In this document: one piece after another, positions 11,657-59,731 of the stretch
Numbering within the stretch: position 1 is the first letter of the stretch
How the letters are laid out: each line of letters begins with the position of its first letter
Assembly: GCA_009695045.1 (NCBI GenBank)
Contig: SIBS01000001.1
Coordinates: 106,942 to 170,941, forward strand
From: Candidatus Levyibacteriota bacterium
GTDB lineage: Bacteria; Patescibacteriota; Microgenomatia; Levybacterales; UBA12049
Direction: 5' to 3'
DNA length: 64,000 nucleotides
Position numbers and translations under genes: made by a program
The notes under the pieces: model-generated
The model's database searches: none
The model's input: only the letters and a program-made list of their open reading frames with translations
What the model was told of the DNA's origin: nothing

Positions 11657-12640
11657 TTATAACTCCGTTGAGCCTTTATAAATCTTTGGAGTAAGCCAAT
11701 CATCTGGGGGAGATTTTACTTGTTGTTGACTATTTTTTCTACCTTTATTATCTTGTATTAATTGTTGAATTGGCTCATATTGTTGGTGTCTTAATTGTGG
11801 TTGATGTAGATCTTGCTGTGGCAATGGCTGTTGACGAATTGATTGTGGAAAAGACTGGCTTGGTTGAAAAACTGGATCAACAAATGCGCGTGGAGATATC
11901 TGCTCCATTATTCGAGTTCTATTTATATTTTTTCTCATAAGTATTCCTGCAATTTCAAAAGCAAGATAGCTAGTTGATTGTTTTTGAAAATTTTCTGTTT
12001 CACTTGCGATACCATCGAATAAATTTTGCGCCATATCATTATCCATATCTATACCAGATGATACTATTAAACTTGCTACTTGTTCAGATACGGAAGAAAA
12101 TTGCGGCGAAACAAGAACAATGTCACCAAATCCCTGATTTTCTACTTTATTATCTATATTTACAACAGTAACTCCTCTTAATGCTTCCATATTAAAAAGG
12201 TGTTCTAAGTCTTTTAATCGTGGCGTACCAATAATAAAAATTAAGCTTGAAACTCCACCGCCTCTCTTATATCTTACGTCTGCCTCAGAAAAACTGAGCC
12301 CACTTTCTCCTGCCTTTATAACGATATTAAGATTTCCTTTCTCAATTTTATAAGATACTTTTTCGACTTCTCCTTCATTATATGGAAATGAAACAGTTAG
12401 ATCGCCATCTTCGCTAATTAATTCTTTCTTTACCTTGTCGATTCCAACTAAAAATGATACACCTACTAATGGATCTCTTGGAGTCGCTACTAGCACTTTT
12501 TTATTCATTTGCTGAATTGCAAGAAATAGAGATAATGCTGCTGCCATATCATCTATACTATGATTTGTTCCTATCAAGATACTTATTTCAATATTTTGAT
12601 TAATGAGGTCTAGTACTTTTTGTACTGTGTTATTTTCCAT
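11657..12640 (-). CDS. DHH/DHHA1-family phosphoesterase (NrnA-like nanoRNase / pAp phosphatase) with a Q/P-rich C-terminal extension
   Basis: DHH-domain region with a glycine-rich stretch (RGGGVSS) followed by a DHHA1-like region. The last ~70 aa are low-complexity Q/P-rich. Confidence 0.65.
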   Translation of the reverse strand: MENNTVQKVLDLINQNIEISILIGTNHSIDDMAAALSLFLAIQQMNKKVLVATPRDPLVGVSFLVGIDKVKKELISEDGDLTVSFPYNEGEVEKVSYKIEKGNLNIVIKAGESGLSFSEADVRYKRGGGVSSLIFIIGTPRLKDLEHLFNMEALRGVTVVNIDNKVENQGFGDIVLVSPQFSSVSEQVASLIVSSGIDMDNDMAQNLFDGIASETENFQKQSTSYLAFEIAGILMRKNINRTRIMEQISPRAFVDPVFQPSQSFPQSIRQQPLPQQDLHQPQLRHQQYEPIQQLIQDNKGRKNSQQQVKSPPDDWLTPKIYKGSTEL

Positions 12641-12646
12641 GATAAT

Positions 12647-14092
12647 TTATTCATGAAATACTATCATGTCTCCTATAGTAAAGTCAAGCGCGGGGGAAAG
12701 AATTACGCCACCCTCTACTCCTTTTTCTATTTTAGATATCTGATTTTTACCTTGTCTCAGCGAAATAATCACACTTTCTCCAATAATTGTTTCATCTCGC
12801 AATATTCTTGCCTTATCTCCTCTTGCAACTCTACCCTCTAGTACTCGTATGCCCGCAACTTTTGTTTTTTCAAAAGGAAAACTTGCTAAGATAGTTGCGC
12901 GACCAAATATTTTTTCTTCTAAAGAAAGTTGCTTACCTTCTAATACATCTGCTAATTCATCTATTAACTCATAGATAATAGCATAATTTTTCATGAGTAT
13001 TTTCTCTTGTTTTGATAAGTGGATTACTTCTGATCTTATTTTTGTATTAAAACCTATTACTAATGCGCCGGTTGATTTAGCCAAGAGCACGTCTGCTTCA
13101 GAAATTTCACCACTTTTTTGAGAAATTATCTTTACATCCGCAGGCAAGGATCCTGCAATTGCCTCTAGGGAACCTAATGTATCACAGCAAAGAATAATTG
13201 ATACAACGTTTTTTCTTAAATGAGGCGAATATGAAGTTGGTATCACTATTTCCTGCATAGGTATCTGCTCATGATCAATTTCTCCTTTTTTAGTAACCGT
13301 TGCCCCAACAGATGGAACAGTAGTAAAACCTAAAACCTCAACAGCATCTCCAACTCCAACATTCTTCATTTGTTCACCTTTATCATTTATAAGCAGTCTT
13401 ACGCGAGCAGTAATTCCATCACAAACAATATCATCTCGAGTCTCAAGATTGCCACTTTTTATTATAATTGTTGCCTTAACTCCCATTTTCTGATCCAATC
13501 TAGACTCGATTATGATAGCCTTAAATAAATCTGTTGGAGAAATATTTTTACCACCATCATTTAATTCAAAGAAAAGCAGAATAAGATCTAATAATGCTTG
13601 AATATTATAATTAGTCTTTGCGGATACCCCTATGTAAGGTATATTTCCACCGAGACCTTCAAGTAATACGTCTAGATGAAGTAATTGTTGTTTTACTTTT
13701 TCAACATTATGATCAGGCAAATCAACTTTAGTAATAACAACTATATATGGAATTTTTGCATCTTTTAACAAAGATATGGCCTCTTTTGTTTGAGGCATAA
13801 CGCCATCGATAGCAGAAACGACAAGTAGTCCTATGTCTGCAGCCTGCGCACCACGAGAACGCATACGAGAAAAAGCTTCATGACCAGGAGTATCTATGAA
13901 TGTAATCCTTTGATTAACGCCATCATGAATTGTCTCTATTTGGGAAGCACCAATTTTCTGAGTAATGCCACCATGTTCGCGTGCAGCAATATTAGTCTTA
14001 CGAATTGCATCTAGTAAGGACGTTTTTCCGTGATCCACGTGTCCCAATACAGCTATTACGGGTGGTATTAATTGTTTTATTTTTTTATCCAT
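12647..14092 (-). CDS. infB: Translation initiation factor IF-2, minimal form (G domain to C2 only)
   Basis: Starts almost directly at the GTPase P-loop (VLGHVDHGKTSLLD), then DTPGHEAF and NKVD. It has beta-barrel domains II and C. Length 481 aa, lies downstream of nusA. Confidence 0.85.
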   Translation of the reverse strand: MDKKIKQLIPPVIAVLGHVDHGKTSLLDAIRKTNIAAREHGGITQKIGASQIETIHDGVNQRITFIDTPGHEAFSRMRSRGAQAADIGLLVVSAIDGVMPQTKEAISLLKDAKIPYIVVITKVDLPDHNVEKVKQQLLHLDVLLEGLGGNIPYIGVSAKTNYNIQALLDLILLFFELNDGGKNISPTDLFKAIIIESRLDQKMGVKATIIIKSGNLETRDDIVCDGITARVRLLINDKGEQMKNVGVGDAVEVLGFTTVPSVGATVTKKGEIDHEQIPMQEIVIPTSYSPHLRKNVVSIILCCDTLGSLEAIAGSLPADVKIISQKSGEISEADVLLAKSTGALVIGFNTKIRSEVIHLSKQEKILMKNYAIIYELIDELADVLEGKQLSLEEKIFGRATILASFPFEKTKVAGIRVLEGRVARGDKARILRDETIIGESVIISLRQGKNQISKIEKGVEGGVILSPALDFTIGDMIVFHE

Positions 14093-15384: not shown

Positions 15385-17760
15385 TTAATTTATTGATGTG
15401 ATAAAAGTATTATTATCAACAGAAAAAACAATCTTACTTCCACGACCAATCTTGCTTTCCAATAAATTTTTACTTAATATATCTTCTATATTATCTTGGA
15501 TATATCGTCGGATAGGACGAGCGCCAAATTCTCTATCTGCTCCCTCAGTTACAATCTTAACTACAACATCTTTATTAAAAAAGACATCAATATCTTGCTC
15601 CGCAAGTCTCTTTATAATTTTGTCAAGAATAAGCTCCGTCACAATAGTAATTTCTTCTACTCCTAATGGCTTAAATGTAACTACTCCATCAAATCTATTT
15701 AGTAATTCTGGCTTAAAAACACTCTTAGTCTGTAGATAATCTGCAAGATTTTTTTGAAATAACTTATCTACTATTTTTCCCTTAGAAATCTCTTCTCGAA
15801 TAAATTCAGAACCAGCATTGGATGTTGCAATAATGATTGCATTAAGAAATGATACTGTTTTGCCCTTATTATCCGTAAGTCTGCCATCTTCTAAAACCTG
15901 AAGAAATAAATCAAGTATGCGGGGACTTGCTTTTTCAAACTCATCAAGAAGAACAAGTGAAAACGGCGCATCATGAATTTTGTCTGTTAATTCTCCACGT
16001 TCTTCTCCTTCCCCAGGAGTAGAGCCAAGTAATCTCTTTATTCCTGCTTCATCAACATACTCAGACATATCTAGACGAATAATTTTTTCTTCACCTCCAA
16101 AATAAGTGTCTGCAAGAGCTTTAGCAGTTTCAGTTTTTCCAACACCAGTTGGCCCAAGAAAGAGAAAAGAAATTGGCTTATTTGATGCACTAACACCACT
16201 ACGTAATCGACGCATTGCCTCAGCTATGCCATTCACAGCTTCGTCTTGCCCTATGATTCTCTTATGCAACTCTTTTTCTAAATTTAGAAGGATAGTTTTT
16301 TCCTCACCAGTTGCCACACCTACTGCTATATGAGTTTTTTCTTCTATCTTATTAATAACATCTTCTACGGTTACTATTTTTTTATTTGCGAAAGCAACAC
16401 TATTTGCGCTATCTGTGATCAAACGAATTGCACCACCAGGTAAAACATTCTCCTGCATATATCTATGTGCCAATTTTACAGATTCAACAACTGCTTTATA
16501 TGTAATATAGACTTTATATTTTCGCTCAATTATATTAGCTTTCTCAAGAACCATTTGTATTGCCTGCCCTAATTGTGGTTCTAGTAATCTAACCACTTCA
16601 AATACATCAAGTATATCTGAACGATTTTCCCCAAATAATTTATAATTTCCATCTGTTAATGTGGCAATTACCCTAATATCGCCAGATCTTAAATGTGGCA
16701 ATAATGCACCAGATAAATCAGAATGGAAAGTTGATGCGCCAAGAATATTTTGAATATTAGGTATATAAAGAATAATATTACCCGCATGCAATAATTCTTG
16801 AAAAATTGCCTGCAATCTAGTTTCCAACTCACCTTGATTATTTACTCCTGCAAGCAACGGCCCAATCATAAGCTCAAAAAATCTTTTATGATTTAACTCT
16901 TTTGATAAGAGTCCCGCATTACTTTCAAATGCCAACATCTCTACAATTGCTGTTTTACCACCACCAGGATTCCCTACTAATAATATGCTATTCTTTTCTT
17001 TTTTTGAAAGCCCTTCTGCTACCTTTTGATATTCAATATTTCTCCCAACAACAGTTGGTCTCTCGCGCAATACTCGAGCGGTAACATCAGTAATATATTT
17101 ATTTGTTTCCAGTGTCCATCCTGATATAAAAAATTCACCAATTCCCTCACCTAAGAAATTCACTTTACTAGATGGTGAATTTTCTTCATCTGGATAATCA
17201 AAATGCGTCCATAAAATTATATCTAAAAATTCATTTTGTTTAAGATTTTTTGAAAAAAGAAATTTAGATTCTTCTTCGATAAGTAAAATATAAGCAGCAA
17301 ATAAATCAACAGTTGTGACATACTTGACACGCATTTGCCTTGCTAATATAAATGCATATTCCCCAATTTTTTCTTCAGTTATTTTAATTATTGGTACTTC
17401 AATTGCTATAATCGAGGATTTATGAAAAATAAATTTTATTGCCTTATCTTTAAATAATTTCTTTGGATTGAATATATCGCTACTTTTACCACAAACTGTC
17501 AATGCATCAAGAGTAAATGAATCGATATAATTATCATCAATATTTTGCATTACTTGTATGATTGGCTTCTGACGACATATTTTATAATAAAAAAATATTT
17601 CAAACATTAAAAACCAAGAAAGAAAAAATATTGGCATAACAGAAATATTATTTACATCACCTATAAGAGCAATATATATAGAGATAATTGGAATAAAAAA
17701 ACGGACGATTCCGATTATTGAACTTTTATAGAAACTATAAAATCTTGCGTTATTTATCAT
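15385..17760 (-). CDS. Clp/Hsp100-family double-AAA+ ATPase with N-terminal transmembrane segments. D1 appears catalytically degenerate and D2 intact. No ClpP-docking loop.
   Basis: N-terminal ~60 aa has two hydrophobic helices. D1 Walker A is GNPGGGKT, but the Walker-B position reads ILYIPNIQ (DE replaced by PN) and the RRFQ arginine-finger position reads DVFE. D2 has GPTGVGKTETAKALA and Walker B LLDEFEKA. The linker LNLEKELHKRIIGQDEA is ClpA/B/C-like. No IGF/VGF loop was found. Confidence 0.8.
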   Translation of the reverse strand: MINNARFYSFYKSSIIGIVRFFIPIISIYIALIGDVNNISVMPIFFLSWFLMFEIFFYYKICRQKPIIQVMQNIDDNYIDSFTLDALTVCGKSSDIFNPKKLFKDKAIKFIFHKSSIIAIEVPIIKITEEKIGEYAFILARQMRVKYVTTVDLFAAYILLIEEESKFLFSKNLKQNEFLDIILWTHFDYPDEENSPSSKVNFLGEGIGEFFISGWTLETNKYITDVTARVLRERPTVVGRNIEYQKVAEGLSKKEKNSILLVGNPGGGKTAIVEMLAFESNAGLLSKELNHKRFFELMIGPLLAGVNNQGELETRLQAIFQELLHAGNIILYIPNIQNILGASTFHSDLSGALLPHLRSGDIRVIATLTDGNYKLFGENRSDILDVFEVVRLLEPQLGQAIQMVLEKANIIERKYKVYITYKAVVESVKLAHRYMQENVLPGGAIRLITDSANSVAFANKKIVTVEDVINKIEEKTHIAVGVATGEEKTILLNLEKELHKRIIGQDEAVNGIAEAMRRLRSGVSASNKPISFLFLGPTGVGKTETAKALADTYFGGEEKIIRLDMSEYVDEAGIKRLLGSTPGEGEERGELTDKIHDAPFSLVLLDEFEKASPRILDLFLQVLEDGRLTDNKGKTVSFLNAIIIATSNAGSEFIREEISKGKIVDKLFQKNLADYLQTKSVFKPELLNRFDGVVTFKPLGVEEITIVTELILDKIIKRLAEQDIDVFFNKDVVVKIVTEGADREFGARPIRRYIQDNIEDILSKNLLESKIGRGSKIVFSVDNNTFITSIN

Positions 17761-18101
17761 AAAAATGATTTATAAAACATAAGCGTTAATGTCGCAAGTG
17801 GTAGAAAAATAAATCCTAAAAAAATAATTATTTCAAAAACTAATACGGACATTATAATTACCATATCTGTAAGAATTATAAATGTTTTTATAAAAATTCC
17901 CATACCAATCGAGAAGCCTACTAGTCCTTCTCTGTATTCATTTTTCCACGGCTTAAAATATGTTTTTATTAAGAGAGCTATGGACAGGAGTCGGGATAAA
18001 GATATATTTAATGAAGAAAAATAACTAAATAATCCAATCGGAGCTTCAATATACCAAAATTTAAGAAATAAAAATGGTAATTGAAATATAAAAAAAATCA
18101 T
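17757..18101 (-). CDS. Small polytopic membrane protein of unknown function, between dnaJ and the Clp ATPase
   Basis: 114 aa with about 3 hydrophobic helices. Overlaps the Clp ATPase start by 4 nt on the same strand, suggesting translational coupling. Confidence 0.35.
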   Translation of the reverse strand: MIFFIFQLPFLFLKFWYIEAPIGLFSYFSSLNISLSRLLSIALLIKTYFKPWKNEYREGLVGFSIGMGIFIKTFIILTDMVIIMSVLVFEIIIFLGFIFLPLATLTLMFYKSFL

Positions 18102-18218
18102 AAAACTAAATCTATCTAATTATAGGAAGTTTATGAATAAATTACAAATAAATAACGAGCTTAAAATAATAATCTCAGAGAAGTACATTAAAAAGGCTCA
18201 TATTTTATTATAAGTAAA

Positions 18219-19064
18219 CTAAAACCATGTTTTTTTTGCTACTTCCTGATCTAGCGCATCAAGTAAATCTTTTTGCTTCTTTGTAAGATGTTTTGGTACT
18301 AGAACTTTTATTCTCACATAATGATCTCCATGAGAATTGCCTCGAAGCTTAGGCATGCCTTTTTCCCTAAGCCGAAATACTGTTTCCGGCTGAGTACCAG
18401 CTGGCATTTTTAATTTTACTTCACCATTCACAGTTACAACCTGCAATATATCCCCAAGACATGCTTTGGCAAATGTTACCTGCATTTCGGAAACAATATC
18501 TGCACCTTCGCGCTGAAATCTAGAATCAGCTCGAATATTTACAATAATATCAAAATCATTAAATCTAATTCTATTACCATCATCAACCCCTGCAGGAATT
18601 TTTATTGATTGATTTTTACCATCAATATCTACTTTTTTCTCCACACCTTTTACAGCTTCCATAAAATCTATAGTAAGCGAATAAGATTGTCGTCGCTGAC
18701 GAGAACCACCACCAAAAAATTGCTCAAAAATATCAAAAGGGTCAGAAAATCCACTAGGATCAAATCCCTGACCGGTATTGCCAGTACTATACGAAGAAGA
18801 AAATGGTCCCTGTTGTCCACCAAATGGTCCAGCGCCACCATCTTGTTCGAATGCTGCGGCACCATATTGGTCATATGTTTGTCGTTTTTGATTATCTGAA
18901 AGTATTTCGTATGCTTTTGTTACTTCTTTAAATTTTAATTCCCCCTCCTTAGTTTTATTGCGATCGGGATGATATCGAAGTGCAAGCTTTCTGTATGATT
19001 TTTTTATTTCATCTCCGGATGCGCTTTTTATAACTCCTAATGTTTTATAGTAATCTTCTGCCAT
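18219..19064 (-). CDS. DnaJ-family co-chaperone lacking the zinc-finger domain (type II / CbpA-like)
   Basis: J domain with HPD (YRKLALRYHPDRN), a G/F-rich linker and a C-terminal substrate-binding domain. No CxxCxGxG repeats. Lies downstream of dnaK. Confidence 0.8.
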   Translation of the reverse strand: MAEDYYKTLGVIKSASGDEIKKSYRKLALRYHPDRNKTKEGELKFKEVTKAYEILSDNQKRQTYDQYGAAAFEQDGGAGPFGGQQGPFSSSYSTGNTGQGFDPSGFSDPFDIFEQFFGGGSRQRRQSYSLTIDFMEAVKGVEKKVDIDGKNQSIKIPAGVDDGNRIRFNDFDIIVNIRADSRFQREGADIVSEMQVTFAKACLGDILQVVTVNGEVKLKMPAGTQPETVFRLREKGMPKLRGNSHGDHYVRIKVLVPKHLTKKQKDLLDALDQEVAKKTWF

Positions 19065-19082
19065 ATAATTTTACTCCTTTTC

Positions 19083-19107
19083 AAAATAAAACCCCGCCGT
19101 GGCGGGG
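19083..19107 (-). terminator. Intrinsic terminator-like hairpin plus T-tract between dnaK and dnaJ, on the minus strand
   Basis: Plus-strand sequence aaaataaaaccccgccgtggcgggg. On the minus strand this is a GC-rich 7-bp stem (CCCCGCC/GGCGGGG) followed by TTTTATTTT. Confidence 0.5.
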
Positions 19108-19136
19108 TAATTAAATGCCGAATGTAGATAAATTAA

Positions 19137-21062
19137 TTAATTTACCACTTCTCCCTCAACGGGTTCATCTTTATCTGATTTATCTTCTTTTTTATCAACA
19201 TTCTTCTCTTCTTCTGATTCATTTGGCTTTGATGAAGAATCAGTAGCTGTGTCCTGATCTTTATAAAGTTTTTCTCCTACTTTCTGTAAAGCATCTGATA
19301 ATTCTTTTGTTTTTGCTTCAATATCATCTTTATTATCTGAATCTAATATATCTTTGAGTGATTTTATTTTTTCTTCAATTTCTTTCTTTGTTGAATCATC
19401 TACTTTATCAGCTGAATCTTTTAATGCTTTTTCTGCCGTAAAAATAAGAGAATCTGCAGAGTTTCGTGTTTCTACTTTTAACTTTTTTTCTTCATCATCT
19501 TTTGCGTGAACCTCTGCTTCTTTTGTCATACGCTCTACTTCTTCCTTTGTAAGCCCTGTTGATCCTGTTATTTTTATACTTTGTTCTTTTCCAGTTGCTT
19601 TATCTTTTGCTTTTACACTAAGGATACCGCTAGAATCTATTTCAAAAATAACTTCTACCTGAGGAACGCCACGGGGAGATGGTGGAATACCATCTAAAAC
19701 AAATCTACCTAGCGATTTATTATCTGTTGCCATTGGTCGCTCACCCTGTAAAACATTAATCTCAACTTGTGTTTGATTATCTGCAGCAGTTGAAAAAACT
19801 TGTGATTTATCAGTTGGAATTGTTGTATTTCTAGGAATAAGTGACGTTGAGACACCACCTAATGTTTCTAAACCAAGAGTTAGAGGAGTTACATCTAGGA
19901 GTAATACATCCTTTACTTCTCCAGCAAGTACTCCTGCCTGTACTGCAGCACCAACCGCAACTACTTCATCTGGATTCACTGATTTATTTGGCTCTTTTCC
20001 AAAGAATTTAGTAACAACTTCTACTATTTTTGGCATTCGAGTCATTCCACCAACCAAAACTATTTCATCTATTTCAGATGCTTGCATTTTTGCATCTTTC
20101 AATGCCAATTTAAGTGGCTCTAATGTTTTATTAACAAGATCACCAACTAATTGCTCTAATTTTGCCCTAGTAAGAGTCATCGTGAGATGAAGTGGCCCAT
20201 CTGATCCCTGAGTAATAAATGGCTGATTAATTTGAGCCTCTTGCGAGGTGGAAAGTTCTATTTTTGCTTTCTCTCCACATTCTCTTAATCTTTGGAGCGC
20301 TTGTGGATCTTTTCGAAGATCAATATTATTTTCTTTTTTAAATTCATCAGCAAGATAATTTATGATAACTTGATCAAAATCATCTCCGCCTAAATGAGTA
20401 TCTCCATTTGTAGATTTAACTTCATAAACTACTTCTCCTGGTTCTCCTTCTCCAAGCTCTAAAATTGAAATATCGAATGTTCCACCACCGAGATCATATA
20501 CCGCAATTGTATGTGTATTTTTTTTATCTAAACCATAAGCTAAGGCAGCAGCAGTTGGTTCATTAATAATACGTAAAACTTCAAGTCCAGCAATTTCTCC
20601 TGCTTGCTTTGTTGCTTGACGCTGACTATCATCAAAATAAGCTGGGACTGCAATAACTGCTTGAGTAACAGTAGATCCAAGATAACTTTCAGCGTCTTTT
20701 TTTATTTTTTGCAAAATCATTGCTGAAAGCTCTTGAGGAGTAAAAGTTTTCCCCTCAACTCCTACCACGCTCATTCCATCTCGTCCTGATTTAATTTCAT
20801 AGGATAATAACTTTTTATCTTGCTGCACTGATGGATCATCAAATTTTCTCCCCATCAAGCGTTTTACTGAATATACTGTTTTCTTTGGCTTAAGAATAAG
20901 TTGACGCTTAGCTATATCTCCAACTACATGAGATATAGGGTCTACAACTGATGGGATAACATTTCGACCTTCTGAGGAGTGGATTACCTTTGGACTCCCA
21001 CCCTCCATAACAGCCACACATGAATTTGTTGTTCCTAAATCGATACCAATTATTTTTCCCAT
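19137..21062 (-). CDS. dnaK: Chaperone DnaK (Hsp70)
   Basis: [18 protein letters not shown] and the full nucleotide- and substrate-binding domains. Has a C-terminal acidic/K-rich tail. Confidence 0.95.
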
Positions 21063-21129
21063 ATATATTTAATTCTAATTATTTAATAGTTAGTTCTTTA
21101 TTATAAAACAAATCTTATTAAATAATCAA

Positions 21130-21645
21130 CTAGCTAATTATCTTTTTACCTACTTTAACATTAGATGGCCTAAGTACTTTGTCGTGTAGCATAAATCCTA
21201 GCCTCACTTCTTCGATCACTTTTCCATCATCGCCCTCTACCGTATCAACGCATTCCATTATATGTGGATCAAAATCTTTTCCCTCCACCTGCATCCTTAT
21301 TGCTCCCTCATCTTTTAAGACATCAAGAAATTGCTGTATACTTAATTTTAAGCCTTGATTATCTACATGTTTATTTGCCATTTGCAATGTATCAAGTATT
21401 GGTAAGAGGCTAAGCATGAGCACCTTGTTTCCAGACCTTATCCACTCAATTCGCTCTTCTCGCATTCTTTTTTCTAAATTTTGATAATCAGCTAAAGCTC
21501 TTTTATATAAATTCTCAGATAAAATTGTTTTTTCCATACATTCTTCTAATTCTTTATTTTTATTTTCTACCTGAAGATCATTCACGTCAATAGGCATAAG
21601 CGTATCCTCTAATTCCATCATATTCTTATCTTTTTTCTTATTCAT
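21130..21645 (-). CDS. grpE: Nucleotide exchange factor GrpE
   Basis: Coiled-coil N-terminal region plus a C-terminal beta domain. Position is hrcA-grpE-dnaK. Confidence 0.8.
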   Translation of the reverse strand: MNKKKDKNMMELEDTLMPIDVNDLQVENKNKELEECMEKTILSENLYKRALADYQNLEKRMREERIEWIRSGNKVLMLSLLPILDTLQMANKHVDNQGLKLSIQQFLDVLKDEGAIRMQVEGKDFDPHIMECVDTVEGDDGKVIEEVRLGFMLHDKVLRPSNVKVGKKIIS

Positions 21646-21666
21646 ATTAATAGATAACTCTTATTA

Positions 21667-22398
21667 TTACCATCCATCTGGCATGTCTCCTGCCAAATTA
21701 CTATAGTAGCGAACTATTGGAATAATCTGCATATAATTAAGTCTCTCTGGACCCAATATGCCAATATCTCCAGACATATTTCCTTTTGTTTTAAAATCAG
21801 TAAATACAACTCCATAGGGCCCTTTTAATAATGGCCCTAGGTCTTCTCCTAGGCAAACATGAACTCCTTCTTCTTCAAATTTTTGCTGAAAGACTGATTT
21901 AAAGCAGTCATATTCATCAATCACTGAAAGTAGTGTCTTTGTAATATCTATGTCATAGAACTCTGGCATATCTAAAATATTAGCATATCCAGCAGCAAAT
22001 AAATCTCCTTCATCAGTGGTAACAATTGCGATCGCCTTAGTCTTTTCCGCCAAAGAACGTGCTATTTCACGAAAAAATCTTTGATCATTTAATCTAAAAT
22101 CCCATAAACCTTCTTTTACCGCCACCTCTTCTGCAACAGATAATTCTTTTTCCTTCATTAATTGCTTAACATAGAATCTCATCCCCTTTGGTGTTGGCAT
22201 GCGACCAGCTGAAGCATGCAGCTTTCTCAGATAGCCTAATTTAGTAAGATGAACCATGTCGTTCCTAATTGTCGCAGGCGATGCGCTAAGATTATGTTTT
22301 TTTTCAAGCGTATCGGATCCAACTGGCTCAGCTGACTCTATATATTCCTCTATAAGACTTTTGAGAATTTCAATTTGCCTCTGAGTAAGATCATGCAT
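21667..22398 (-). CDS. hrcA: Heat-inducible transcription repressor HrcA
   Basis: N-terminal winged helix (LTQRQIEILKSLIEEYIESAEPVGS). A CIRCE palindrome lies immediately upstream. Conserved operon context. Confidence 0.85.
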   Translation of the reverse strand: MHDLTQRQIEILKSLIEEYIESAEPVGSDTLEKKHNLSASPATIRNDMVHLTKLGYLRKLHASAGRMPTPKGMRFYVKQLMKEKELSVAEEVAVKEGLWDFRLNDQRFFREIARSLAEKTKAIAIVTTDEGDLFAAGYANILDMPEFYDIDITKTLLSVIDEYDCFKSVFQQKFEEEGVHVCLGEDLGPLLKGPYGVVFTDFKTKGNMSGDIGILGPERLNYMQIIPIVRYYSNLAGDMPDGW

Positions 22399-22410
22399 AT
22401 AAATATATAG

Positions 22411-22437
22411 TTAGCACTAATATATCATGAGTGCCAA
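22411..22437. promoter_or_regulatory. CIRCE operator (HrcA binding site)
   Basis: TTAGCACTA-N9-GAGTGCCAA against the consensus TTAGCACTC-N9-GAGTGCTAA. It is 13 nt upstream of the hrcA start. Confidence 0.7.
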
Positions 22438-22440
22438 AGC

Positions 22441-22833
22441 TTGTCAACAGTAAGCATATTTATCAATGTCGATTTACTATGCTACAATTTTAAAATGAAA
22501 AACAAAAAAAGATATTATTTTTTTCTAAGCAGCATTTTATCTTTAGTATTATTACTACTTTTAATATTTTTCCATACACCAGATTCTTCATTTTATTTCA
22601 ATAAGGTAAATTTTTATCTCCCTACTGAATTTTGCTTCTTTATTTTAAGCTTTATATTTGTTTTATGTTTTTCAACATCTATACTTCTTTTTGTAAGGCG
22701 TGGTGTTGTTTGGGGAATTTTTTCAACCATGTCTCTTTTTCTACTTATGGAACGTCTTTATCATCCATTATTTTTTATTCTATTATTTATATTATCTCTA
22801 ATAATTGATGGGCTCATAAAAAAACCAGAATAA
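22441..22833 (+). CDS. Hypothetical small polytopic membrane protein (uncertain ORF)
   Basis: 130 aa, very hydrophobic, with no recognisable motifs. Occupies the hrcA-metG intergenic region. Could be spurious in AT-rich DNA. Confidence 0.2.
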   Translation: MSTVSIFINVDLLCYNFKMKNKKRYYFFLSSILSLVLLLLLIFFHTPDSSFYFNKVNFYLPTEFCFFILSFIFVLCFSTSILLFVRRGVVWGIFSTMSLFLLMERLYHPLFFILLFILSLIIDGLIKKPE

Positions 22834-31427: not shown

Positions 31428-33396
<1,969 letters not shown>

Positions 33397-41641: not shown

Positions 41642-42927
41642 AGATTGGGATTATTGGAGCAGGCTTCACTGGATTATCAGCTGGCTATTACTTAACAAAG
41701 CTAGGTCATGATGTTACGATTTTTGAAAAAGACCCTCAACCAGGTGGACTTGCTATTGGATATAGAGAAAAAGGATGGCAATCGCCACTTGAGGAACATT
41801 ATCATCACTGGTTTATCAATGATAATTCAGCCATAGAATTAGCCAAAGAAATAGAACATGAGGTTATTATAAAAACACCAAAATCTTCTTTCTATGTTAA
41901 TGGAAAGTCATATCAATTTGATTCACCATTTTCCATGCTTACTTTTCCAAAGCTTCCCTTAATAGACAAGATTAGAATGGCAGCAATATTTGCAATCTTA
42001 TTTAGATTTAATCCATTTTGGAAAATTCTCGAAGGATTTAAGATTGCAACTACCATCCCTATACTTATCGGTGAAAAAGCATACAAACTACTCTGGGAGC
42101 CACAACTAATAAATAAGATGGGTGAATATGCGAAAAATATTTCACTTGTATGGTTTTGGGCTAGGATTAAAAAGAGAACCAAATCTTTAGCTTACCCAAG
42201 AGACGGATTTTTGTCATTCGCAAAACATATCGCAAAACATATTGCCATAAATAAAGGGGAGATGATTTACAAAACAGAAGTGTATAAACTACTTGAAAAC
42301 AATAATAAAAGTCTTAGTATTTTTACAAAGGATAGGCATGGTAGGGAAAAAAAGTTTTTATTTGACAAAGTTATAGTAACGCTTCCTACTCATCTATTTC
42401 TTAATATTGCTCCTCAATTATCGCAAGCTTATAAAAATTTATTTGAGCCATTAGATGGACTAGCAGCAACTAATATGGTGCTTCGCTTAAGAAAGCCTTT
42501 TTTTAAAGATAAAACATATTGGCTTAGTATATGTGAGGCCAATTCTCCGATCCTAGTCGTTATTGAACATACTAATTTTATAGATAAAAAGCATTATAAT
42601 GATGAACATATTGTTTATCTTGGCAATTATCTTAAATCAACTGATAAAAACTTTATCAAAAATAAAGAGGATCTCTTACAAATATATGACTCATTATTAA
42701 TAAAAATTAATCCTGAATATAAAAAAAATATAATAGATTATAGAGTTTTTCGAGCATATTTTGCCCAACCAATTATTCCCCTAAATTATTCTAAAATTAT
42801 TCCACCAAATACAACACCATTGCAGAATGTATTCCTAGCAAACATGCAGCAAGTTTATCCATGGGATAGGGGTACTAACTATGCTATTGAAGCAGGTAAA
42901 AATATAGCTAGATCTATTTTGCGATGA
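41638..42927 (+). CDS. FAD/NAD(P)-binding oxidoreductase (amine-oxidase / protoporphyrinogen-oxidase-like Rossmann fold)
   Basis: N-terminal dinucleotide-binding motif IGIIGAGFTGLSAGYYL...DVTIFEKDPQPGG. Length 429 aa. Confidence 0.6.
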   Translation: MKIGIIGAGFTGLSAGYYLTKLGHDVTIFEKDPQPGGLAIGYREKGWQSPLEEHYHHWFINDNSAIELAKEIEHEVIIKTPKSSFYVNGKSYQFDSPFSMLTFPKLPLIDKIRMAAIFAILFRFNPFWKILEGFKIATTIPILIGEKAYKLLWEPQLINKMGEYAKNISLVWFWARIKKRTKSLAYPRDGFLSFAKHIAKHIAINKGEMIYKTEVYKLLENNNKSLSIFTKDRHGREKKFLFDKVIVTLPTHLFLNIAPQLSQAYKNLFEPLDGLAATNMVLRLRKPFFKDKTYWLSICEANSPILVVIEHTNFIDKKHYNDEHIVYLGNYLKSTDKNFIKNKEDLLQIYDSLLIKINPEYKKNIIDYRVFRAYFAQPIIPLNYSKIIPPNTTPLQNVFLANMQQVYPWDRGTNYAIEAGKNIARSILR

Positions 42928-44654
42928 AATTATTTTTAAAGCATATAGATAAACCATTATTTTTATTAATCCTAATTACCACTATTGGCGCATTTCTCCG
43001 CTTCTATAAACTTGATTGGGGGAATGGTATTTTCACTCATCCAGATGAATACCATATTATTGCATCTGTAAATCAACTATTCTTTCCTAATCAGATGCAT
43101 CCACATTTTTTTTCATATGGCACATTTACCATTTATTTAATTTATTTAATAAAACAAATATTACTATATCTAGGTTACCATATACAGGATATTAATATAT
43201 TTTTAATTGGACGCTTTTGCTCAGCGATATTTTCAACTCTTACAATAATTATAATTTATAAAATAAGTAGATTTTTCATGAACCAGAGATTCTCGCTTGT
43301 CTCATCTCTACTAGCTGCCTTAACTCCTGGACTTATTCAGCAGGCACATTTTACGACACCTGAATCAAATCTTATTTTTTTCATGCTAGGGACAATTCTA
43401 TTCATTATGTATTTTTTAGAATATAAAAAATTATATTTTATTTTTACATCATCTATATTTCTTGGTTTTTCACTCGGAGTAAAGATCAGTTCAATCGTGC
43501 TATTGGCACCATTAACATTATCTATACTTATTTATTCATTTCAACACAAACTAAAGCCTAACTACGCAAATATTATACAAAAAAAAAGAGCCATAATATA
43601 TTCAGAAATTATACAGAAATCAATTATTATTTTAAGAATACTAATTATTATAATTTCAAAATTTATCGCATTAATTATAGGCAATATATGCATAATATTA
43701 ATTACCTTTGCAATTATTGCACCTTTTGTTTTTATTGATTTTCAGGGATTTATAAACAATTTACAATATGAAGGAGGCCTAGCAATTGATTCTATTCCAG
43801 TTTTCTACACTAGGCAATTTATCCATACATTACCAATTATTTTTCAATTAAATAAAATATTTCCATATGCATTGGGATTTCCACTTCTTTTCCTTGGCAT
43901 TGAAGGATTATTTCTAAGCCTAGTTCGTATAAATGATAAAAGATATCTTATCCTAATAATATCTTTTATTTCTATTTTTATTCCAAATGTATTTTTATTT
44001 ACAAAATGGACTAGATTTATCTCTCCAATCTTTCCATTTTTTTCTATTTTTTCCTGCTTATTTATTGAATTTATTTTTAGAAAAAATAAAAAAATATCTA
44101 TATTATTATTAATAATATTAATTACTACAACGATTATTTGGTCTTATGCATTTTTCTCAATATATCTACGTCCAGACGTAAGAATTGTTGCTTCATCATG
44201 GCTTGAAAAAAATTTACCCAATAATTCAACTATTATGATTGAGGGAGGAAACATGATCGATATTCCTCTGAGTGGCAATTTTAATCGTTCATCATATGAC
44301 TTCTATAATTTTGATTATGATAAACTTACAAGAATGAATATCTATAAAGGACTTGAAAATTCAGATTACTTTATAGTGCAAAGTAGAAGAGTTTTTCTAA
44401 ATCATCAAAGGTCAAGAGTTTATTTCCCGAAAACTGCACATTTTTATGATTTACTTTTTTCTAAAAAACTTGGATTTGAGGAAATTAAAGAGTTCAATTC
44501 ATATCCAATGTTAAGTTTTAATAACTTTAAAATAGAATTTCCTGATGAAAACGCAGAAGAAACATGGAGCGTATTTGATCATCCAGTGATACGAATTTTT
44601 AAAAAAATTAATCATATACAAAAAGAGGGGTTTGCAAAAAAATTTAATGAATAA
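42924..44654 (+). CDS. GT-C fold membrane glycosyltransferase (PMT/ArnT-like) with a C-terminal soluble domain. Paralog A.
   Basis: More than 10 TMs. Loop-1 DE motif (FTHPDEYHII). C-terminal tail ...ETWSVFDHPVIRIFKKI is shared with the next gene. Confidence 0.55.
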   Translation: MKLFLKHIDKPLFLLILITTIGAFLRFYKLDWGNGIFTHPDEYHIIASVNQLFFPNQMHPHFFSYGTFTIYLIYLIKQILLYLGYHIQDINIFLIGRFCSAIFSTLTIIIIYKISRFFMNQRFSLVSSLLAALTPGLIQQAHFTTPESNLIFFMLGTILFIMYFLEYKKLYFIFTSSIFLGFSLGVKISSIVLLAPLTLSILIYSFQHKLKPNYANIIQKKRAIIYSEIIQKSIIILRILIIIISKFIALIIGNICIILITFAIIAPFVFIDFQGFINNLQYEGGLAIDSIPVFYTRQFIHTLPIIFQLNKIFPYALGFPLLFLGIEGLFLSLVRINDKRYLILIISFISIFIPNVFLFTKWTRFISPIFPFFSIFSCLFIEFIFRKNKKISILLLIILITTTIIWSYAFFSIYLRPDVRIVASSWLEKNLPNNSTIMIEGGNMIDIPLSGNFNRSSYDFYNFDYDKLTRMNIYKGLENSDYFIVQSRRVFLNHQRSRVYFPKTAHFYDLLFSKKLGFEEIKEFNSYPMLSFNNFKIEFPDENAEETWSVFDHPVIRIFKKINHIQKEGFAKKFNE

Positions 44655-46332: not shown

Positions 46333-46402
46333 ATAGCTATTAATCAAAATATATAATATATAAATATATTTCTACTCATTAAATAGATTTAGATATCAAT
46401 AG

Positions 46403-47164
46403 CTATTTAATCTTTCTTGCTGCAATAAATAAATATGGACCTTTTTTTGTATTTTTTGATGTATTTTGAGAAATAAATTTTACCAATGATTTTAAAAATA
46501 TCGTTTTCTGAGGGAATAAAACCCATCTATTAAAAATTAATTTTGTTATTATAGATGATATACTTAAATAGTGAGAGATATCAAATAATCCAATTATTTT
46601 TTTATTATCTAAATAGTGAGTTGAGTATTTTACCTTATAGCCTAATAAATTTAGTACTGAAGTCCATTTTTTTAAAGAATATAAATTATAATGTTTTGAT
46701 TTTTTTATAAAAAAATTTGAATAAATAGAACCAAATAGTTTTATTCCAAACAAATATTTTGGCCAAATATTTGTTGGTACAGTAAAATACATATTTCCAT
46801 TTTTTTTTAGTACCCTAGCTGACTCTTTAAGAACTTCATCAATATTAGGAATATGTTCAAAGCTTGAATTACAGATAATTGTAGAAAAATAATTATCTGG
46901 AAATGGAATTTTTTTTCCATCATATATTACAATTTTTTTATATACTTTTTTTTCTTTTGCTTCATTAATTTCACTATTTTTAACATCCAAGCCAATATCA
47001 ATTCTTCCAAATGCAATTTTAGCAAAAAATCCATCTCCACAACCAATATCAAGTATTGGTGCATTAAATGGCTTATATTTTTGATACAAAAATACTTCTT
47101 TTGGTCGTAAAAAAGAAAAGAAAATTGGCTTATTTTCTAAAAAATCAATTATGTATTTTTCCAT
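46403..47164 (-). CDS. Class I SAM-dependent methyltransferase
   Basis: Motif I ILDIGCGDGFF and a post-I acidic residue. Length 253 aa. Confidence 0.6.
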   Translation of the reverse strand: MEKYIIDFLENKPIFFSFLRPKEVFLYQKYKPFNAPILDIGCGDGFFAKIAFGRIDIGLDVKNSEINEAKEKKVYKKIVIYDGKKIPFPDNYFSTIICNSSFEHIPNIDEVLKESARVLKKNGNMYFTVPTNIWPKYLFGIKLFGSIYSNFFIKKSKHYNLYSLKKWTSVLNLLGYKVKYSTHYLDNKKIIGLFDISHYLSISSIITKLIFNRWVLFPQKTIFLKSLVKFISQNTSKNTKKGPYLFIAARKIK

Positions 47165-47181
47165 TTTTTTTATTATATCAT

Positions 47182-48315: not shown

Positions 48316-48340
48316 ATGGTAATGATATAATGCATTATAT

Positions 48341-58205: not shown

Positions 58206-58280
58206 TCCGTGATAGCTCAACGGTAGAGCAGGTCGCTGTTAACGACAAGGTTCTAGGTTCGAATCCTAGTCGCGGAGCCA
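58206..58280 (+). tRNA. tRNA-Asn (anticodon GTT), CCA-encoded
   Basis: Manual fold: acceptor TCCGTGA/TCGCGGA (one G-U pair), D-stem GCTC/GAGC, anticodon loop CTGTTAA, T-arm CTAGG-TTCGAAT-CCTAG, discriminator G, then CCA. Confidence 0.85.
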
Positions 58281-59726: not shown

Positions 59727-59731
59727 TTTTA

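What the first reader, a model, noticed from the sequence alone, without database searches (positions are those of the whole stretch)
15385..18101. Membrane-anchored Hsp100/Clp ATPase with a degenerate first AAA+ module, co-transcribed with a small membrane protein at the end of the hrcA-grpE-dnaK-dnaJ operon
The 791-aa Clp protein starts with two hydrophobic helices, unlike the soluble N-domains of ClpA/B/C. Its D1 module keeps a Walker A lysine, but the Walker B position has PN instead of DE and the arginine-finger position has DVFE instead of RRFQ. D2 is canonical. No IGF/VGF ClpP-docking loop is present, and the middle region is short. A 114-aa polytopic membrane protein overlaps its start by 4 nt. 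Together this suggests a membrane-tethered, single-active-ring disaggregase or extractase under HrcA/CIRCE heat-shock control. I do not recognise this arrangement as a described Clp subtype.
Basis: seen in the sequence. Interest (0 to 1): 0.55.

Follow-up and report, generated by a model that had tools for sequence, protein, structure and literature searches.

The report
Membrane-embedded two-subunit Clp ATPase of Patescibacteria
Two tightly coupled genes encode a small membrane protein and a membrane-anchored relative of the ClpA/B/C protein-unfolding ATPases that has one dead ATPase ring, one live ring and no pore-loop tyrosines; the pair recurs across the ultra-small Patescibacteria and I found no description of it.

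Summary
A 791-aa class-I Hsp100/Clp protein (15385-17760, minus strand) begins with a two-helix membrane hairpin. Its D1 keeps the P-loop lysine but has P-N at the Walker B position, D-V at the arginine-finger position, and no pore-loop tyrosine. D2 keeps every catalytic motif. There is no M-domain and no ClpP-docking loop.

First, D2 is not fully canonical: its pore loop is GEGEERGE instead of GYVGY, and 107 of 113 family members have no aromatic residue there. Second, the 114-aa upstream ORF is a genuine, highly conserved protein and an obligate partner:
- Every one of the 80 metagenome loci found with it that has enough downstream DNA carries the Clp gene next to it, mostly at a -4 to +5 nt gap.
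- In 11 of those loci the two genes are fused in frame.
- Distant relatives in Saccharimonadales, Taylorbacteria, Moraniibacteriota and Magasanikiibacteriota keep the pair, while about 60 non-Patescibacteria Clp loci have neither feature.

HrcA/CIRCE control is plausible in this genome but is not a conserved property of the module.

Best reading: a stand-alone, membrane-embedded two-subunit AAA+ machine driven by D2 that acts on membrane-associated clients in an unconventional way. It is a new variant of a known kind.

The parts
17757..18101 (-). Small membrane subunit, 114 aa. It has a long N-terminal helix (residues 2-38), a conserved loop KTYFKPWKNEYREGL (residues 46-60, nt 17922-17966) and a 53-residue hydrophobic helix (residues 61-113).
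   Evidence: 276-372 homologue clusters of about 109 aa, with no Pfam, NCBIfam or PADLOC hit. Mean column identity is 68%. AlphaFold2 mean pLDDT is 91. It is always adjacent to, or fused with, the TM-Clp gene.
15385..17760 (-). TM-anchored class-I Hsp100/Clp ATPase, 791 aa. The stop codon is at 15385-15387.
   Evidence: Pfam AAA, AAA_lid_9, AAA_2 and ClpB_D2-small. Best solved relatives are ClpC, ClpB and ClpA. It is 100% identical to a Candidatus Levyibacteriota protein.
17578..17721 (-). N-terminal membrane hairpin: TM1 (residues 14-36) and TM2 (residues 42-61), joined by a ~5-residue outer loop. R20 and E54 are conserved.
   Evidence: Hydropathy, AlphaFold2 helices, column conservation, coordinates checked.
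17161..17574 (-). Helical N-domain (residues 63-200), a divergent Clp_N-like domain.
   Evidence: hhalign against canonical Clp N-domains gives probability 69% and E 4e-5 over 90 columns. The NCBIfam ClpA alignment starts at profile position 82. Pfam Clp_N was not among the families listed for the query at E<=1, nor among the 25 families matched by most of the 35 members scanned.
16381..17055 (-). D1 AAA+ module (residues 236-460), catalytically degenerate. Walker A GNPGGGKT is at 16951-16974. The pore loop AGVNNQGE is at 16828-16851. The Walker B position IILYIPNI is at 16753-16776. The arginine-finger position LDVFEV is at 16594-16611.
   Evidence: Alignment to ClpC, family column statistics, coordinates checked.
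15388..16260 (-). D2 AAA+ module plus D2-small domain (residues 501-791), with all ATPase motifs intact. Walker A is at 16132-16155, Walker B at 15934-15957, sensor 1 at 15817-15825, the arginine finger at 15688-15699 and sensor 2 at 15514-15525.
   Evidence: These motifs are invariant in 113 homologues. The D2 large domain is 70% identical across the family, against 49% for D1.
15991..16026 (-). D2 pore loop GSTPGEGEERGE: acidic, two residues shorter than the canonical loop, and without an aromatic residue.
   Evidence: HMMER alignment to ClpC GSPPGYVGYDEGGQ. Glu, Gln, Ala or Ser sit at the tyrosine position. 107 of 113 members have no aromatic residue here.
18219..22398 (-). Upstream hrcA (21667-22398), grpE (21130-21645), dnaK (19137-21062) and dnaJ (18219-19064) genes.
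   Evidence: ORF translations. The same synteny appears in many related loci.
22411..22437 (.). CIRCE-like inverted repeat TTAGCACTAATATATCATGAGTGCCAA, overlapping the best sigma-70-like promoter match (22419-22447, minus strand) upstream of hrcA.
   Evidence: One match in the window against 0.02 expected by chance. Promoter match is 11 of 12.
19091..19108 (-). Terminator-like hairpin (7 pairs, 6 of them G-C, followed by a T-run) between dnaK and dnaJ.
   Evidence: Consensus scan only.
18119..18147 (-). Promoter-like site TTGTAA-17-TATAAT in the 117-nt gap between dnaJ and the small gene.
   Evidence: Consensus scan only. Such matches are no more frequent than in shuffled sequence.

Best explanation
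The two genes encode the two subunits of a Patescibacteria-specific, membrane-embedded AAA+ machine of the Hsp100/Clp class.

Anchoring and partner:
- The ATPase is held at the cytoplasmic face of the membrane by an N-in/C-in helical hairpin.
- It associates within the membrane with the ~110-aa partner protein. In some lineages the two are one polypeptide.

The two rings:
- D1 has lost its Walker B acid, its arginine finger and its pore-loop tyrosine. In many members it has also lost the Walker A Ser/Thr. It probably serves only as a structural or assembly ring.
- D2 is the sole ATP-hydrolysing motor.

What it lacks:
- With no ClpP-docking loop and no M-domain, it works neither as a protease partner nor as a DnaK-docked ClpB.

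Most likely function (inferred):
- The N-terminal face of the rings is pinned against the membrane, so the machine most likely remodels or extracts membrane-embedded or membrane-proximal proteins as part of envelope proteostasis.
- Substrate contact would be through conserved acidic, non-aromatic pore loops, possibly gripping the K/R-rich cytoplasmic segments of membrane proteins.

What is shown and what is inferred:
- Shown by computation: the architecture, the state of each motif, the obligate gene pairing and fusions, and the distribution.
- Inferred: hexamer formation, the D1 scaffold and D2 motor roles, the nature of the substrate, and the direction of work.
For: Architecture and motifs.

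The partner is real and conserved.

Obligate linkage:
- Of 80 loci retrieved with the small protein, every locus with more than about 400 nt of downstream DNA carries the Clp gene.
- The commonest gaps are -4 nt and 0 to +5 nt.

Rosetta-stone fusions:
- Close-family fusions are P0028, P0099, P0100 and P0104, plus loci L088, L101, L113, L121, L143, L152, L155, L129 and L157.
- Distant fusions are P0316, P0319 and L049.

The pair is kept in relatives only 27-35% identical over the N-terminal half (residues 1-460), and in other Patescibacteria lineages.

None of about 60 non-Patescibacteria Clp loci has the small gene or a tyrosine-less D2 loop.

It is a paralogue that coexists with canonical ClpC (L081; L117).

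In Southlakia epibionticum the likely orthologous pair SEML1_0700/0701 shows matching Tn-seq calls of NE, NE, GD. Canonical ClpC (SEML1_0512) and ClpP (SEML1_0493) are separate genes in that genome (PMC10633639 Tables S1 and S2).

The pair often neighbours chaperone genes, either the dnaK operon or clpC.
Against: - No aromatic residue sits in either pore loop. In characterised Hsp100s these tyrosines are required for threading (established knowledge of ClpB, Hsp104 and ClpA), so processive polypeptide extraction is not assured.
- No substrate, adaptor or third conserved partner was found in the neighbourhoods examined.
- Oligomeric state and membrane topology of the small subunit are not resolved. 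The two fusion types imply different numbers of membrane crossings in its C-terminal hydrophobic region.
- Heat-shock regulation is not demonstrated.
- Orthology of SEML1_0700/0701 rests on domain layout and gene arrangement, not on a sequence alignment made here.
Confidence: 0.5

Rival explanations
1. It is a non-threading regulatory ATPase. The D2 nucleotide cycle switches the conformation or assembly of the small membrane partner, or of another membrane complex, without pulling a polypeptide through the pore. This is how Torsin-type or other pore-loop-less AAA+ proteins are thought to act.
For: The pore-loop aromatic residues are lost in both rings, and the replacement acidic loop is strongly conserved. 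The small partner is more conserved than the ATPase (68% mean column identity against about 50%), as expected if it is the regulated element. The Tn-seq phenotype is mild.
Against: The complete two-ring Hsp100 architecture with an N-domain is retained, including the D2 arginine finger and sensor 2, which Torsins lack. More distant family members carry Met or Leu at the tyrosine position, which could still grip a chain.
Confidence: 0.2
2. It is a transport motor. The ring of transmembrane helices (two per ATPase protomer plus those of the small subunit) forms a conduit, and the D2 motor drives a polymer across the membrane. This would resemble the HSP101-EXP2 arrangement of the Plasmodium PTEX translocon, or an import device for host-derived material in these host-dependent bacteria.
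For: The hexamer would contribute about 30 transmembrane helices directly above the D1 entrance (inferred). Conserved charged residues lie within the membrane helices: E54 in the ATPase, and K72, D79 and E90 in the partner. Distribution is restricted to Patescibacteria.
Against: There is no pore-loop aromatic residue to pull a chain. No secretion-system or uptake genes were conserved next to the pair. No structural evidence for a channel was obtained here.
Confidence: 0.15
3. It is an ordinary ClpC/ClpA-type unfoldase that feeds ClpP and merely happens to be membrane-anchored.
For: [quoted passage not shown] The best solved relatives are ClpC and ClpA.
Against: 112 of 113 members lack the [ILVM]G[FLM] docking tripeptide, and the region is about 10 residues shorter than in canonical Patescibacteria ClpC. 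Scores fall far below the ClpA equivalog cutoff (392.9 against 993). A canonical ClpC coexists in the same genomes.
Confidence: 0.03
4. It is an annotation artefact: a mis-called start that creates false transmembrane helices, a decaying pseudogene, or a spurious small ORF.
For: Public gene callers sometimes miss the small gene and call an opposite-strand ORF instead (L081 and L165).
Against: The N-terminal hairpin and the small protein are conserved at protein level in hundreds of sequences. The reading frames are intact, start and stop are coupled, and D2 is 70% identical across the family. Both AlphaFold2 models are confident.
Confidence: 0.01

Closest known systems
ClpA / ClpC (class-I Clp unfoldases that dock on ClpP)
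   Same: Two AAA+ modules with a D2-small domain. Colinear with ClpA without an M-domain insertion. A Clp_N-like helical N-domain. Best sequence and fold matches.
   Different: An N-terminal membrane hairpin and a dedicated membrane subunit. D1 Walker B and arginine finger are lost. No pore-loop tyrosines. No IGL/VGF ClpP loop. Compared with ClpC, no UVR or M-domain.
ClpB / Hsp104 disaggregases
   Same: Stand-alone Hsp100 without a ClpP loop. The D2 region gives the highest NCBIfam score, 433.9 bits. In this genome it sits next to the dnaK operon.
   Different: No M-domain, which is the DnaK/Hsp70 docking element. D1 is inactive. Pore-loop tyrosines are absent. It is membrane-embedded. Its score is far below the equivalog cutoff of 1232.
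FtsH (bacterial membrane-anchored AAA+ protease) and Msp1/ATAD1 (eukaryotic membrane-anchored extractase)
   Same: An AAA+ ring tethered to the cytoplasmic face of a membrane by N-terminal transmembrane helices, a geometry suited to pulling on membrane proteins. This is an analogy in how it may work, not homology beyond the AAA+ fold.
   Different: FtsH has a single AAA module plus an M41 protease domain and aromatic pore loops. Msp1 has a single ring with aromatic pore loops. Here there are two rings, no protease domain and no aromatic pore loops.
Torsin ATPases
   Same: Clp-D2-like AAA+ proteins that are membrane-associated, lack aromatic pore-loop residues and depend on membrane-protein partners (PMC5425593, found). 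There is a weak Pfam Torsin hit to D2.
   Different: Torsins are single-module, lumenal and lack their own arginine finger. Here R689 and all D2 motifs are intact, and the partner is a small polytopic protein, not an AAA-like activator.
PTEX translocon (Plasmodium HSP101 docked on the EXP2 membrane pore)
   Same: A ClpB-type Hsp100 coupled to a membrane component (PMC7355975, found).
   Different: HSP101 is soluble with canonical pore loops and two active rings. Its membrane partners are unrelated proteins.

Membership tests
Hsp100/Clp class I (two-module AAA+) | Two tandem AAA+ modules with AAA_lid_9 and the ClpB_D2-small C-terminal domain | tested here: met
   Pfam AAA 259-362, AAA_lid_9 399-475, AAA_2 529-691 and ClpB_D2-small 699-777. 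Foldseek top hits are ClpC, ClpB and ClpA.
ClpB (TIGR03346 / NF008118) | Score at or above the NCBIfam equivalog cutoff | tested here: not met
   433.9 bits against a cutoff of 1232.1, and 379.1 against 1417.
ClpB | Coiled-coil M-domain inserted in the D1 small subdomain | tested here: not met
   Colinear with ClpA, 630 against 629 residues with no insertion. The AlphaFold2 model has no coiled-coil between residues 397 and 500.
ClpB / ClpA / ClpC (all threading Hsp100s) | Conserved pore-loop tyrosines (D1 KYR, D2 GYVG) | tested here: not met
   D1 has NNQ, and D2 has GEGE with a 2-residue deletion. 113 of 113 members lack an aromatic residue in the D1 loop and 107 of 113 lack one in the D2 loop.
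ClpA (TIGR02639) | Score at or above the equivalog cutoff, plus the IGL ClpP-docking loop | tested here: not met
   392.9 bits against a cutoff of 993.15. There is no [ILVM]G[FLM] in the corresponding D2 region in 112 of 113 members.
ClpC | Double Clp_N repeat N-domain | tested here: inconclusive
   Pfam Clp_N was not among the families listed for the query at E<=1, nor among the 25 families matched by most of the 35 members scanned. A profile-profile match to canonical N-domains gives probability 69% and E 4e-5.
ClpC | Short M-domain or UVR motif, and the VGF ClpP loop | tested here: not met
   ClpC residues about 412-470 have no counterpart. The MGF/LGF tripeptide present in canonical Patescibacteria ClpC is absent here.
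ClpV/TssH, ClpK, ClpG | Score at or above the NCBIfam cutoff | tested here: not met
   360.3 against 884.95, 375.2 against 1900, and 350.2 against 1900.
FtsH | A single AAA module followed by an M41 zinc protease domain | tested here: not met
   No Peptidase_M41 hit, and two Clp-type modules instead.
Torsin | A single Clp-D2-like module lacking its own arginine finger | tested here: not met
   There are two modules. D2 R689 is invariant. The Torsin Pfam hit is 18.2 bits against a cutoff of 27.
Dodola DolB / PDC-M37B (defence-system ClpB-like ATPases) | Full-length match and a defence-island context | tested here: not met
   PADLOC matches cover only D2, at about 128 bits. The context is housekeeping genes, and the small partner has no PADLOC hit.
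Proposed new family: Patescibacteria TM-Hsp100 plus small membrane subunit | An upstream or fused ~110-aa membrane protein carrying an F-K-P-W-K-N-E-Y-R-type loop | tested here: met
   Window ORF 17757-18101. Linkage holds in all informative loci.
Proposed new family: Patescibacteria TM-Hsp100 plus small membrane subunit | An N-terminal membrane anchor, a D2 pore loop without tyrosine, and a D1 without an arginine finger | tested here: met

The most novel reading that the evidence does not exclude
A membrane-integrated Hsp100 machine found in every Patescibacteria lineage sampled here has given up aromatic pore-loop threading. Together with its dedicated membrane subunit it would use a different way of engaging substrates. 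One possibility is an electrostatic grip of an acidic D2 pore on the K/R-rich cytoplasmic segments of membrane proteins. Another is gating or powering a conduit through the ~30-helix transmembrane ring for exchange with the host. Either would be a new mechanistic class within Hsp100 proteins and a lineage-defining feature of Patescibacteria cell envelopes.
Probability: 0.25. Interest if true: 0.8.

Novelty: new variant of a known kind. Interest (0 to 1): 0.62.

Why it matters
Hsp100/Clp proteins are textbook soluble threading machines defined by pore-loop tyrosines. This family keeps the two-ring fold but is built into the membrane, has an obligate small membrane subunit, runs on one ring and lacks the tyrosines.

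It is conserved across several Patescibacteria lineages. These bacteria make up a large share of uncultured diversity and have reduced genomes (PMC10633639, abstract seen), so a retained two-gene module probably does something important for their envelope or their host-dependent lifestyle.

The system is testable. Genetic tools and Tn-seq data already exist for a Saccharibacterium that carries a likely orthologous pair, SEML1_0700/0701. The natural fusions also offer ready-made single-chain constructs for structural work.

It has a practical side too. [quoted passage not shown]

Tried and rejected
1. The genome-contig scan with the Clp alignment used D2-only peptide patterns. It returned mostly canonical ClpC/ClpB from Firmicutes, Actinobacteria and Acidobacteria, not close relatives. 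I re-used it as a negative control and as a source of distant Patescibacteria loci.
2. The small protein has no Pfam, NCBIfam or PADLOC match. A fold search of its model against afdb50 was not possible because the library was unavailable.
3. Pfam Clp_N was not among the families listed for the query at E<=1, nor among the 25 families matched by most of the 35 members scanned. Only a profile-profile comparison gave a moderate match.
4. I first considered SEML1_0512, which lies next to nusA in Southlakia, as the orthologue. It is rejected: it has two Clp_N repeats and a UVR domain, so it is canonical ClpC. SEML1_0700/0701 fit the module instead.
5. My script flagged L122 as a fusion, but inspection showed a separate 151-codon open frame (stop to stop) that holds the small gene.
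6. I searched for CIRCE next to the small gene in related loci and found none. CIRCE appeared only upstream of hrcA.
7. I tried to derive a single topology for the small subunit from the fusions. The ~820-aa fusions imply its C-terminus faces outward. The P0319/L049-type fusions join it directly to the cytoplasmic N-domain. The side of the conserved loop therefore stays ambiguous.
8. The last profile search for small-protein relatives listed only the top 120 hits, so the tail that might contain more fusions could not be seen.
9. Five literature searches for a described membrane-anchored Hsp100 in Patescibacteria found nothing relevant.
Full report
**What is in the window**

On the minus strand the gene order is hrcA (21667-22398), grpE, dnaK, dnaJ (18219-19064), a 114-aa ORF (17757-18101), a 791-aa Clp-like ORF (15385-17760), nusA and a short infB. 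The 114-aa ORF and the Clp ORF overlap by 4 nt (ATGA). The Clp protein is 100% identical to a protein of a Candidatus Levyibacteriota MAG. [quoted passage not shown] GC content is 23-37%.

**The Clp protein**

*Family and fold.* Pfam finds AAA (D1), AAA_lid_9, AAA_2 (D2) and ClpB_D2-small. NCBIfam scores fall far below every equivalog cutoff:
- ClpB: 433.9 against 1232.
- ClpA: 392.9 against 993.
- ClpV, ClpK and ClpG: all far below.

The best solved relatives are ClpC, ClpB and ClpA.

*D1.* The residue-level alignment to B. subtilis ClpC and column statistics over 113 full-length homologues show that D1 is degenerate:
- Walker A is GNPGGGKT. The lysine is kept in 93 of 113 members and is Arg in 18. 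The following Ser/Thr is present in only 43 of 113.
- The Walker B position is hhhhP[E/N/D], with proline in 107 of 113.
- The arginine-finger pair RR is replaced by D/E-V.
- The pore loop KYR is replaced by x-N-Q/R.

*D2.* Walker A, Walker B (DE), sensor 1 (N648), the arginine finger (R689) and sensor 2 (GAR) are invariant. However, the D2 pore loop is GSTPGEGEERGE where ClpC has GSPPGYVGYDEGGQ. The key tyrosine is Glu (67), Gln (16), Ala (8) or Ser (7), and the loop is two residues shorter. 107 of 113 members have no aromatic residue in the D2 loop, and none has one in the D1 loop. It matters because these tyrosines are the substrate-gripping elements of all characterised Hsp100 threading machines (established knowledge).

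*Missing elements.* There is no M-domain. The alignment to ClpA is colinear, 630 against 629 residues, and the AlphaFold2 model shows no coiled-coil. There is no ClpP-docking tripeptide in 112 of 113 members, whereas canonical Patescibacteria ClpC proteins from the same searches carry MGF or LGF in a region about 10 residues longer.

*N-terminus.* The AlphaFold2 model (mean pLDDT 85.4) has:
- an amphipathic helix at residues 2-11;
- two transmembrane helices at 14-36 and 42-61, joined by a ~5-residue loop;
- a helical domain at 63-190.

Basic residues flank the hairpin on both sides (K/R at 6, 12 and 20, and at 60, 63 and 65). This fits an N-in/C-in topology with the AAA+ domains in the cytoplasm. 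R20, E54, K60 and P66 are conserved.

The helical domain gives a moderate profile-profile match to canonical Clp N-domains (probability 69%, E 4e-5). Pfam Clp_N is not among the families listed for it.

Domain identities to the query are 30% for the transmembrane region, 34% for the N-domain, 49% for D1 and 70% for the D2 large domain.

There is no alternative DE in D1, and the start codon is not mis-called.

**The small ORF is a real, obligate partner**

*Conservation.* It has 276 homologue clusters with a single-sequence search and 372 with a profile. They are almost all about 105-115 aa and have no Pfam domain. Mean column identity is 68%, which is higher than for the ATPase. The signature loop is KTYFKPWKNEYRxGLVGFSIGMGIFIKT, and K72, D79 and E90 are conserved within the hydrophobic C-terminal helix. 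AlphaFold2 (mean pLDDT 91) gives a long N-terminal helix, the conserved loop, and one 53-residue hydrophobic helix.

*Linkage.* I retrieved 80 metagenome loci with the small protein alone and analysed them:
- 61 have a separate TM-Clp gene directly downstream, most often overlapping by 4 nt or separated by 0-5 nt.
- 11 have the two fused in one frame. These are L088, L101 (with L102 and L103, the same sequence from other samples), L113, L121, L143, L152, L155, L129 and L157.
- The remaining 8 end within 380 nt of the small gene, so they are uninformative.
- No locus with enough DNA lacks the Clp gene.

Fused proteins also appear in the protein database: P0028, P0099, P0100 and P0104. In these ~820-aa fusions the small protein is joined by a 2-8-residue polar linker to a single hydrophobic helix that aligns with TM2 of the ATPase. 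TM1 is lost.

**The module is Patescibacteria-wide**

An exhaustive search with residues 1-460 found about 45 cluster representatives (50% identity level) that match from the N-terminus. A clear score gap separates them from generic Clp D1 hits.

Three relatives only 29-35% identical over the N-terminal half (P0260, P0272, P0279) were looked up, and all three have the small gene immediately upstream. P0316 and P0319 are independent fusions whose N-termini match the small-protein profile (hhalign E 5e-4 and 2e-6).

I re-analysed the 80 GTDB loci:
- Sixteen loci have a D2 pore loop without tyrosine: the eleven labelled Patescibacteria and the five labelled 'uncultured Gammaproteobacteria'. The Patescibacteria ones include Saccharimonadales L007, L020, L042 and L068, Taylorbacteria L013, Magasanikiibacteriota L006, Moraniibacteriota L003, and L005 and L073.
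- Thirteen of these sixteen also have a small-protein homologue directly upstream or fused: the nine named above plus L002, L014, L021 and L049 among the 'Gammaproteobacteria'-labelled ones. The other three (L001, L004, L008) have 1.3 kb or less of DNA upstream of the match, much of it probably still Clp coding sequence, so they are probably uninformative.
- None of about 60 Clp loci from other phyla has either feature.

D1 degeneration is graded. A few distant members keep DE (P0279, P0284, P0316, L001, L007), but the three whose sequences I read (P0279, P0284, P0316) lack the RR finger and the pore tyrosine. Some distant members carry Met, Leu or Thr at the D2 tyrosine position. The Glu seen in the Levybacteria type is therefore a derived state.

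The module coexists with a canonical ClpC in at least some genomes. In L081 the pair follows a 1427-aa ClpC-like gene with DE, RRFQ and GYVGY motifs. L117 shows the same arrangement.

**Regulation**

A CIRCE element with two mismatches (22411-22437) overlaps the best promoter match upstream of hrcA. The genes down to the Clp gene share a strand with short gaps, so read-through is possible.

Several observations argue against calling heat-shock control a feature of the module:
- A terminator-like hairpin follows dnaK (19091-19108), and a promoter-like site precedes the small gene. These are consensus matches only.
- In related loci CIRCE occurs only upstream of hrcA and never next to the small gene.
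- In L098 and L100 the hrcA operon is on the opposite strand.
- In L082 five genes separate dnaJ from the pair.
- In L081 and L164-L166 there is no dnaK operon nearby.

The most stable neighbour within Microgenomates is nusA-infB downstream. Heat-shock control is thus a lineage-specific possibility, not a defining trait.

**Experimental hint from the literature**

In the Tn-seq study of the Saccharibacterium Southlakia epibionticum (PMC10633639, Tables S1 and S2):
- SEML1_0700 is annotated 'AAA family ATPase' and is 860 aa. Its Pfam layout is AAA 276-381, AAA_2 544-706 and D2-small 713-792, with no Clp_N.
- It is preceded by an overlapping 127-aa hypothetical gene, SEML1_0701. This matches the layout of the module in the Saccharimonadales loci.
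- Both genes are called non-essential at the first two passages and 'growth defect' at the last.
- The same genome has a separate canonical ClpC (SEML1_0512, with Clp_N x2 and UVR) and ClpP (SEML1_0493).

Orthology here is inferred from architecture and arrangement. I could not align the sequences.

**Interpretation**

*Shown by computation:* a two-gene (sometimes one-gene) module encoding a membrane-anchored two-ring Hsp100 and a small polytopic partner. D1 is catalytically dead, D2 is catalytically intact, there is no ClpP or DnaK docking element, and neither pore loop has an aromatic residue.

*Inferred:*
- The proteins form a hexameric complex whose N-terminal (D1) face is pinned to the inner surface of the membrane.
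- D1 acts as an assembly ring and D2 as the motor.
- The machine acts on membrane-embedded or membrane-proximal clients.

The geometry resembles FtsH and Msp1, which favours extraction or remodelling of membrane proteins. The acidic pore could suit the K/R-rich cytoplasmic segments of membrane proteins, but that is speculation.

*Rivals.* The missing tyrosines keep two rivals alive: a non-threading regulatory ATPase (Torsin-like logic) and a transport motor using the transmembrane ring as a conduit (PTEX-like logic). A ClpP-partner role and an annotation artefact are effectively excluded.

*Topology.* The topology of the small subunit is unresolved.
- The ~820-aa fusions require its C-terminus to face outward.
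- The P0319/L049-type fusions join it directly to the cytoplasmic N-domain.
- The number of crossings in its C-terminal hydrophobic region must therefore differ between lineages, and the conserved loop may lie on either side.
- The positive-inside rule and the single long helix predicted by AlphaFold2 slightly favour a cytoplasmic loop.

**Novelty**

No curated family covers either protein. Five full-text searches found no description. Public annotation is generic. I rate it a new variant of a known kind: a new Hsp100 subfamily with a dedicated membrane subunit. Interest is moderately high because it breaks several defining Hsp100 features at once, recurs in every Patescibacteria lineage sampled here, and is testable in an existing genetic system.

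Noticed in passing
window 19091-19108 (-): A G+C-rich hairpin followed by a T-run lies between dnaK and dnaJ. It may be an internal attenuator or terminator splitting the heat-shock operon from dnaJ and the genes downstream.
   Followed up: partly
window 31428-33083 (-): A GroEL gene (Cpn60_TCP1) is present. The CIRCE search with up to 3 mismatches found only the site upstream of hrcA, so groEL may not be under CIRCE control here, or its operator may be more divergent.
   Followed up: no
window 12647-14092 (-): The IF-2 homologue is only 481 aa. The IF-2 gene in the related locus L082 is 478 aa.
   Followed up: no
window 11657-12640 (-): A 327-aa ORF between infB and rpsO has no Pfam hit at E<=1e-5 and has a Gln/Pro-rich C-terminal tail. 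In L082 a 245-aa protein without Pfam hits occupies the same position.
   Followed up: no
window 42924-51021: A very low-GC stretch (23-28%) encodes two PMT_2-type glycosyltransferases, a GT1 glycosyltransferase, a methyltransferase and a DUF2298 membrane protein. It looks like an envelope glycosylation cluster, and its composition differs from the rest of the window.
   Followed up: partly
window 58266-63724 (-): A large serine recombinase (Resolvase, Recombinase and zinc-ribbon domains) sits next to a 1330-aa SF1-type helicase with a C-terminal topoisomerase-type zinc finger. This may be the edge of a mobile element.
   Followed up: no
L081 1223-5506 (+): A canonical ClpC-like protein is expanded to 1427 aa. 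It has long low-complexity Pro/Ala/Gln-rich termini and a C-terminal region of repeated ~70-aa units. It lies immediately upstream of the small-subunit/TM-Clp pair on a 1.6-Mb contig.
   Followed up: no
L002, L004, L014, L021, L049: GTDB records titled 'uncultured Gammaproteobacteria' have the tyrosine-less D2 pore loop typical of Patescibacteria. L002, L014 and L021 also have the small subunit upstream, and in L049 it is fused. In L004 the small subunit was not detected. Either the taxonomic labels are wrong or the module has moved outside Patescibacteria.
   Followed up: no
L081 5616-5993 (+); L165 3628-4020 (+): Public gene calls miss the small subunit in these loci and instead call an opposite-strand ORF of 66-71 aa. 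The partner gene is therefore likely under-annotated in databases.
   Followed up: yes
window 17101-17160 (-), residues 201-220: A family-specific, nearly invariant motif FxGxGIxExxxxGWTxET lies between the N-domain and D1 (G204, G206, G214 and W215 are invariant). AlphaFold2 confidence is lowest exactly here (pLDDT below 50 at residues 211-214). It is a candidate docking site for the partner or the membrane.
   Followed up: partly
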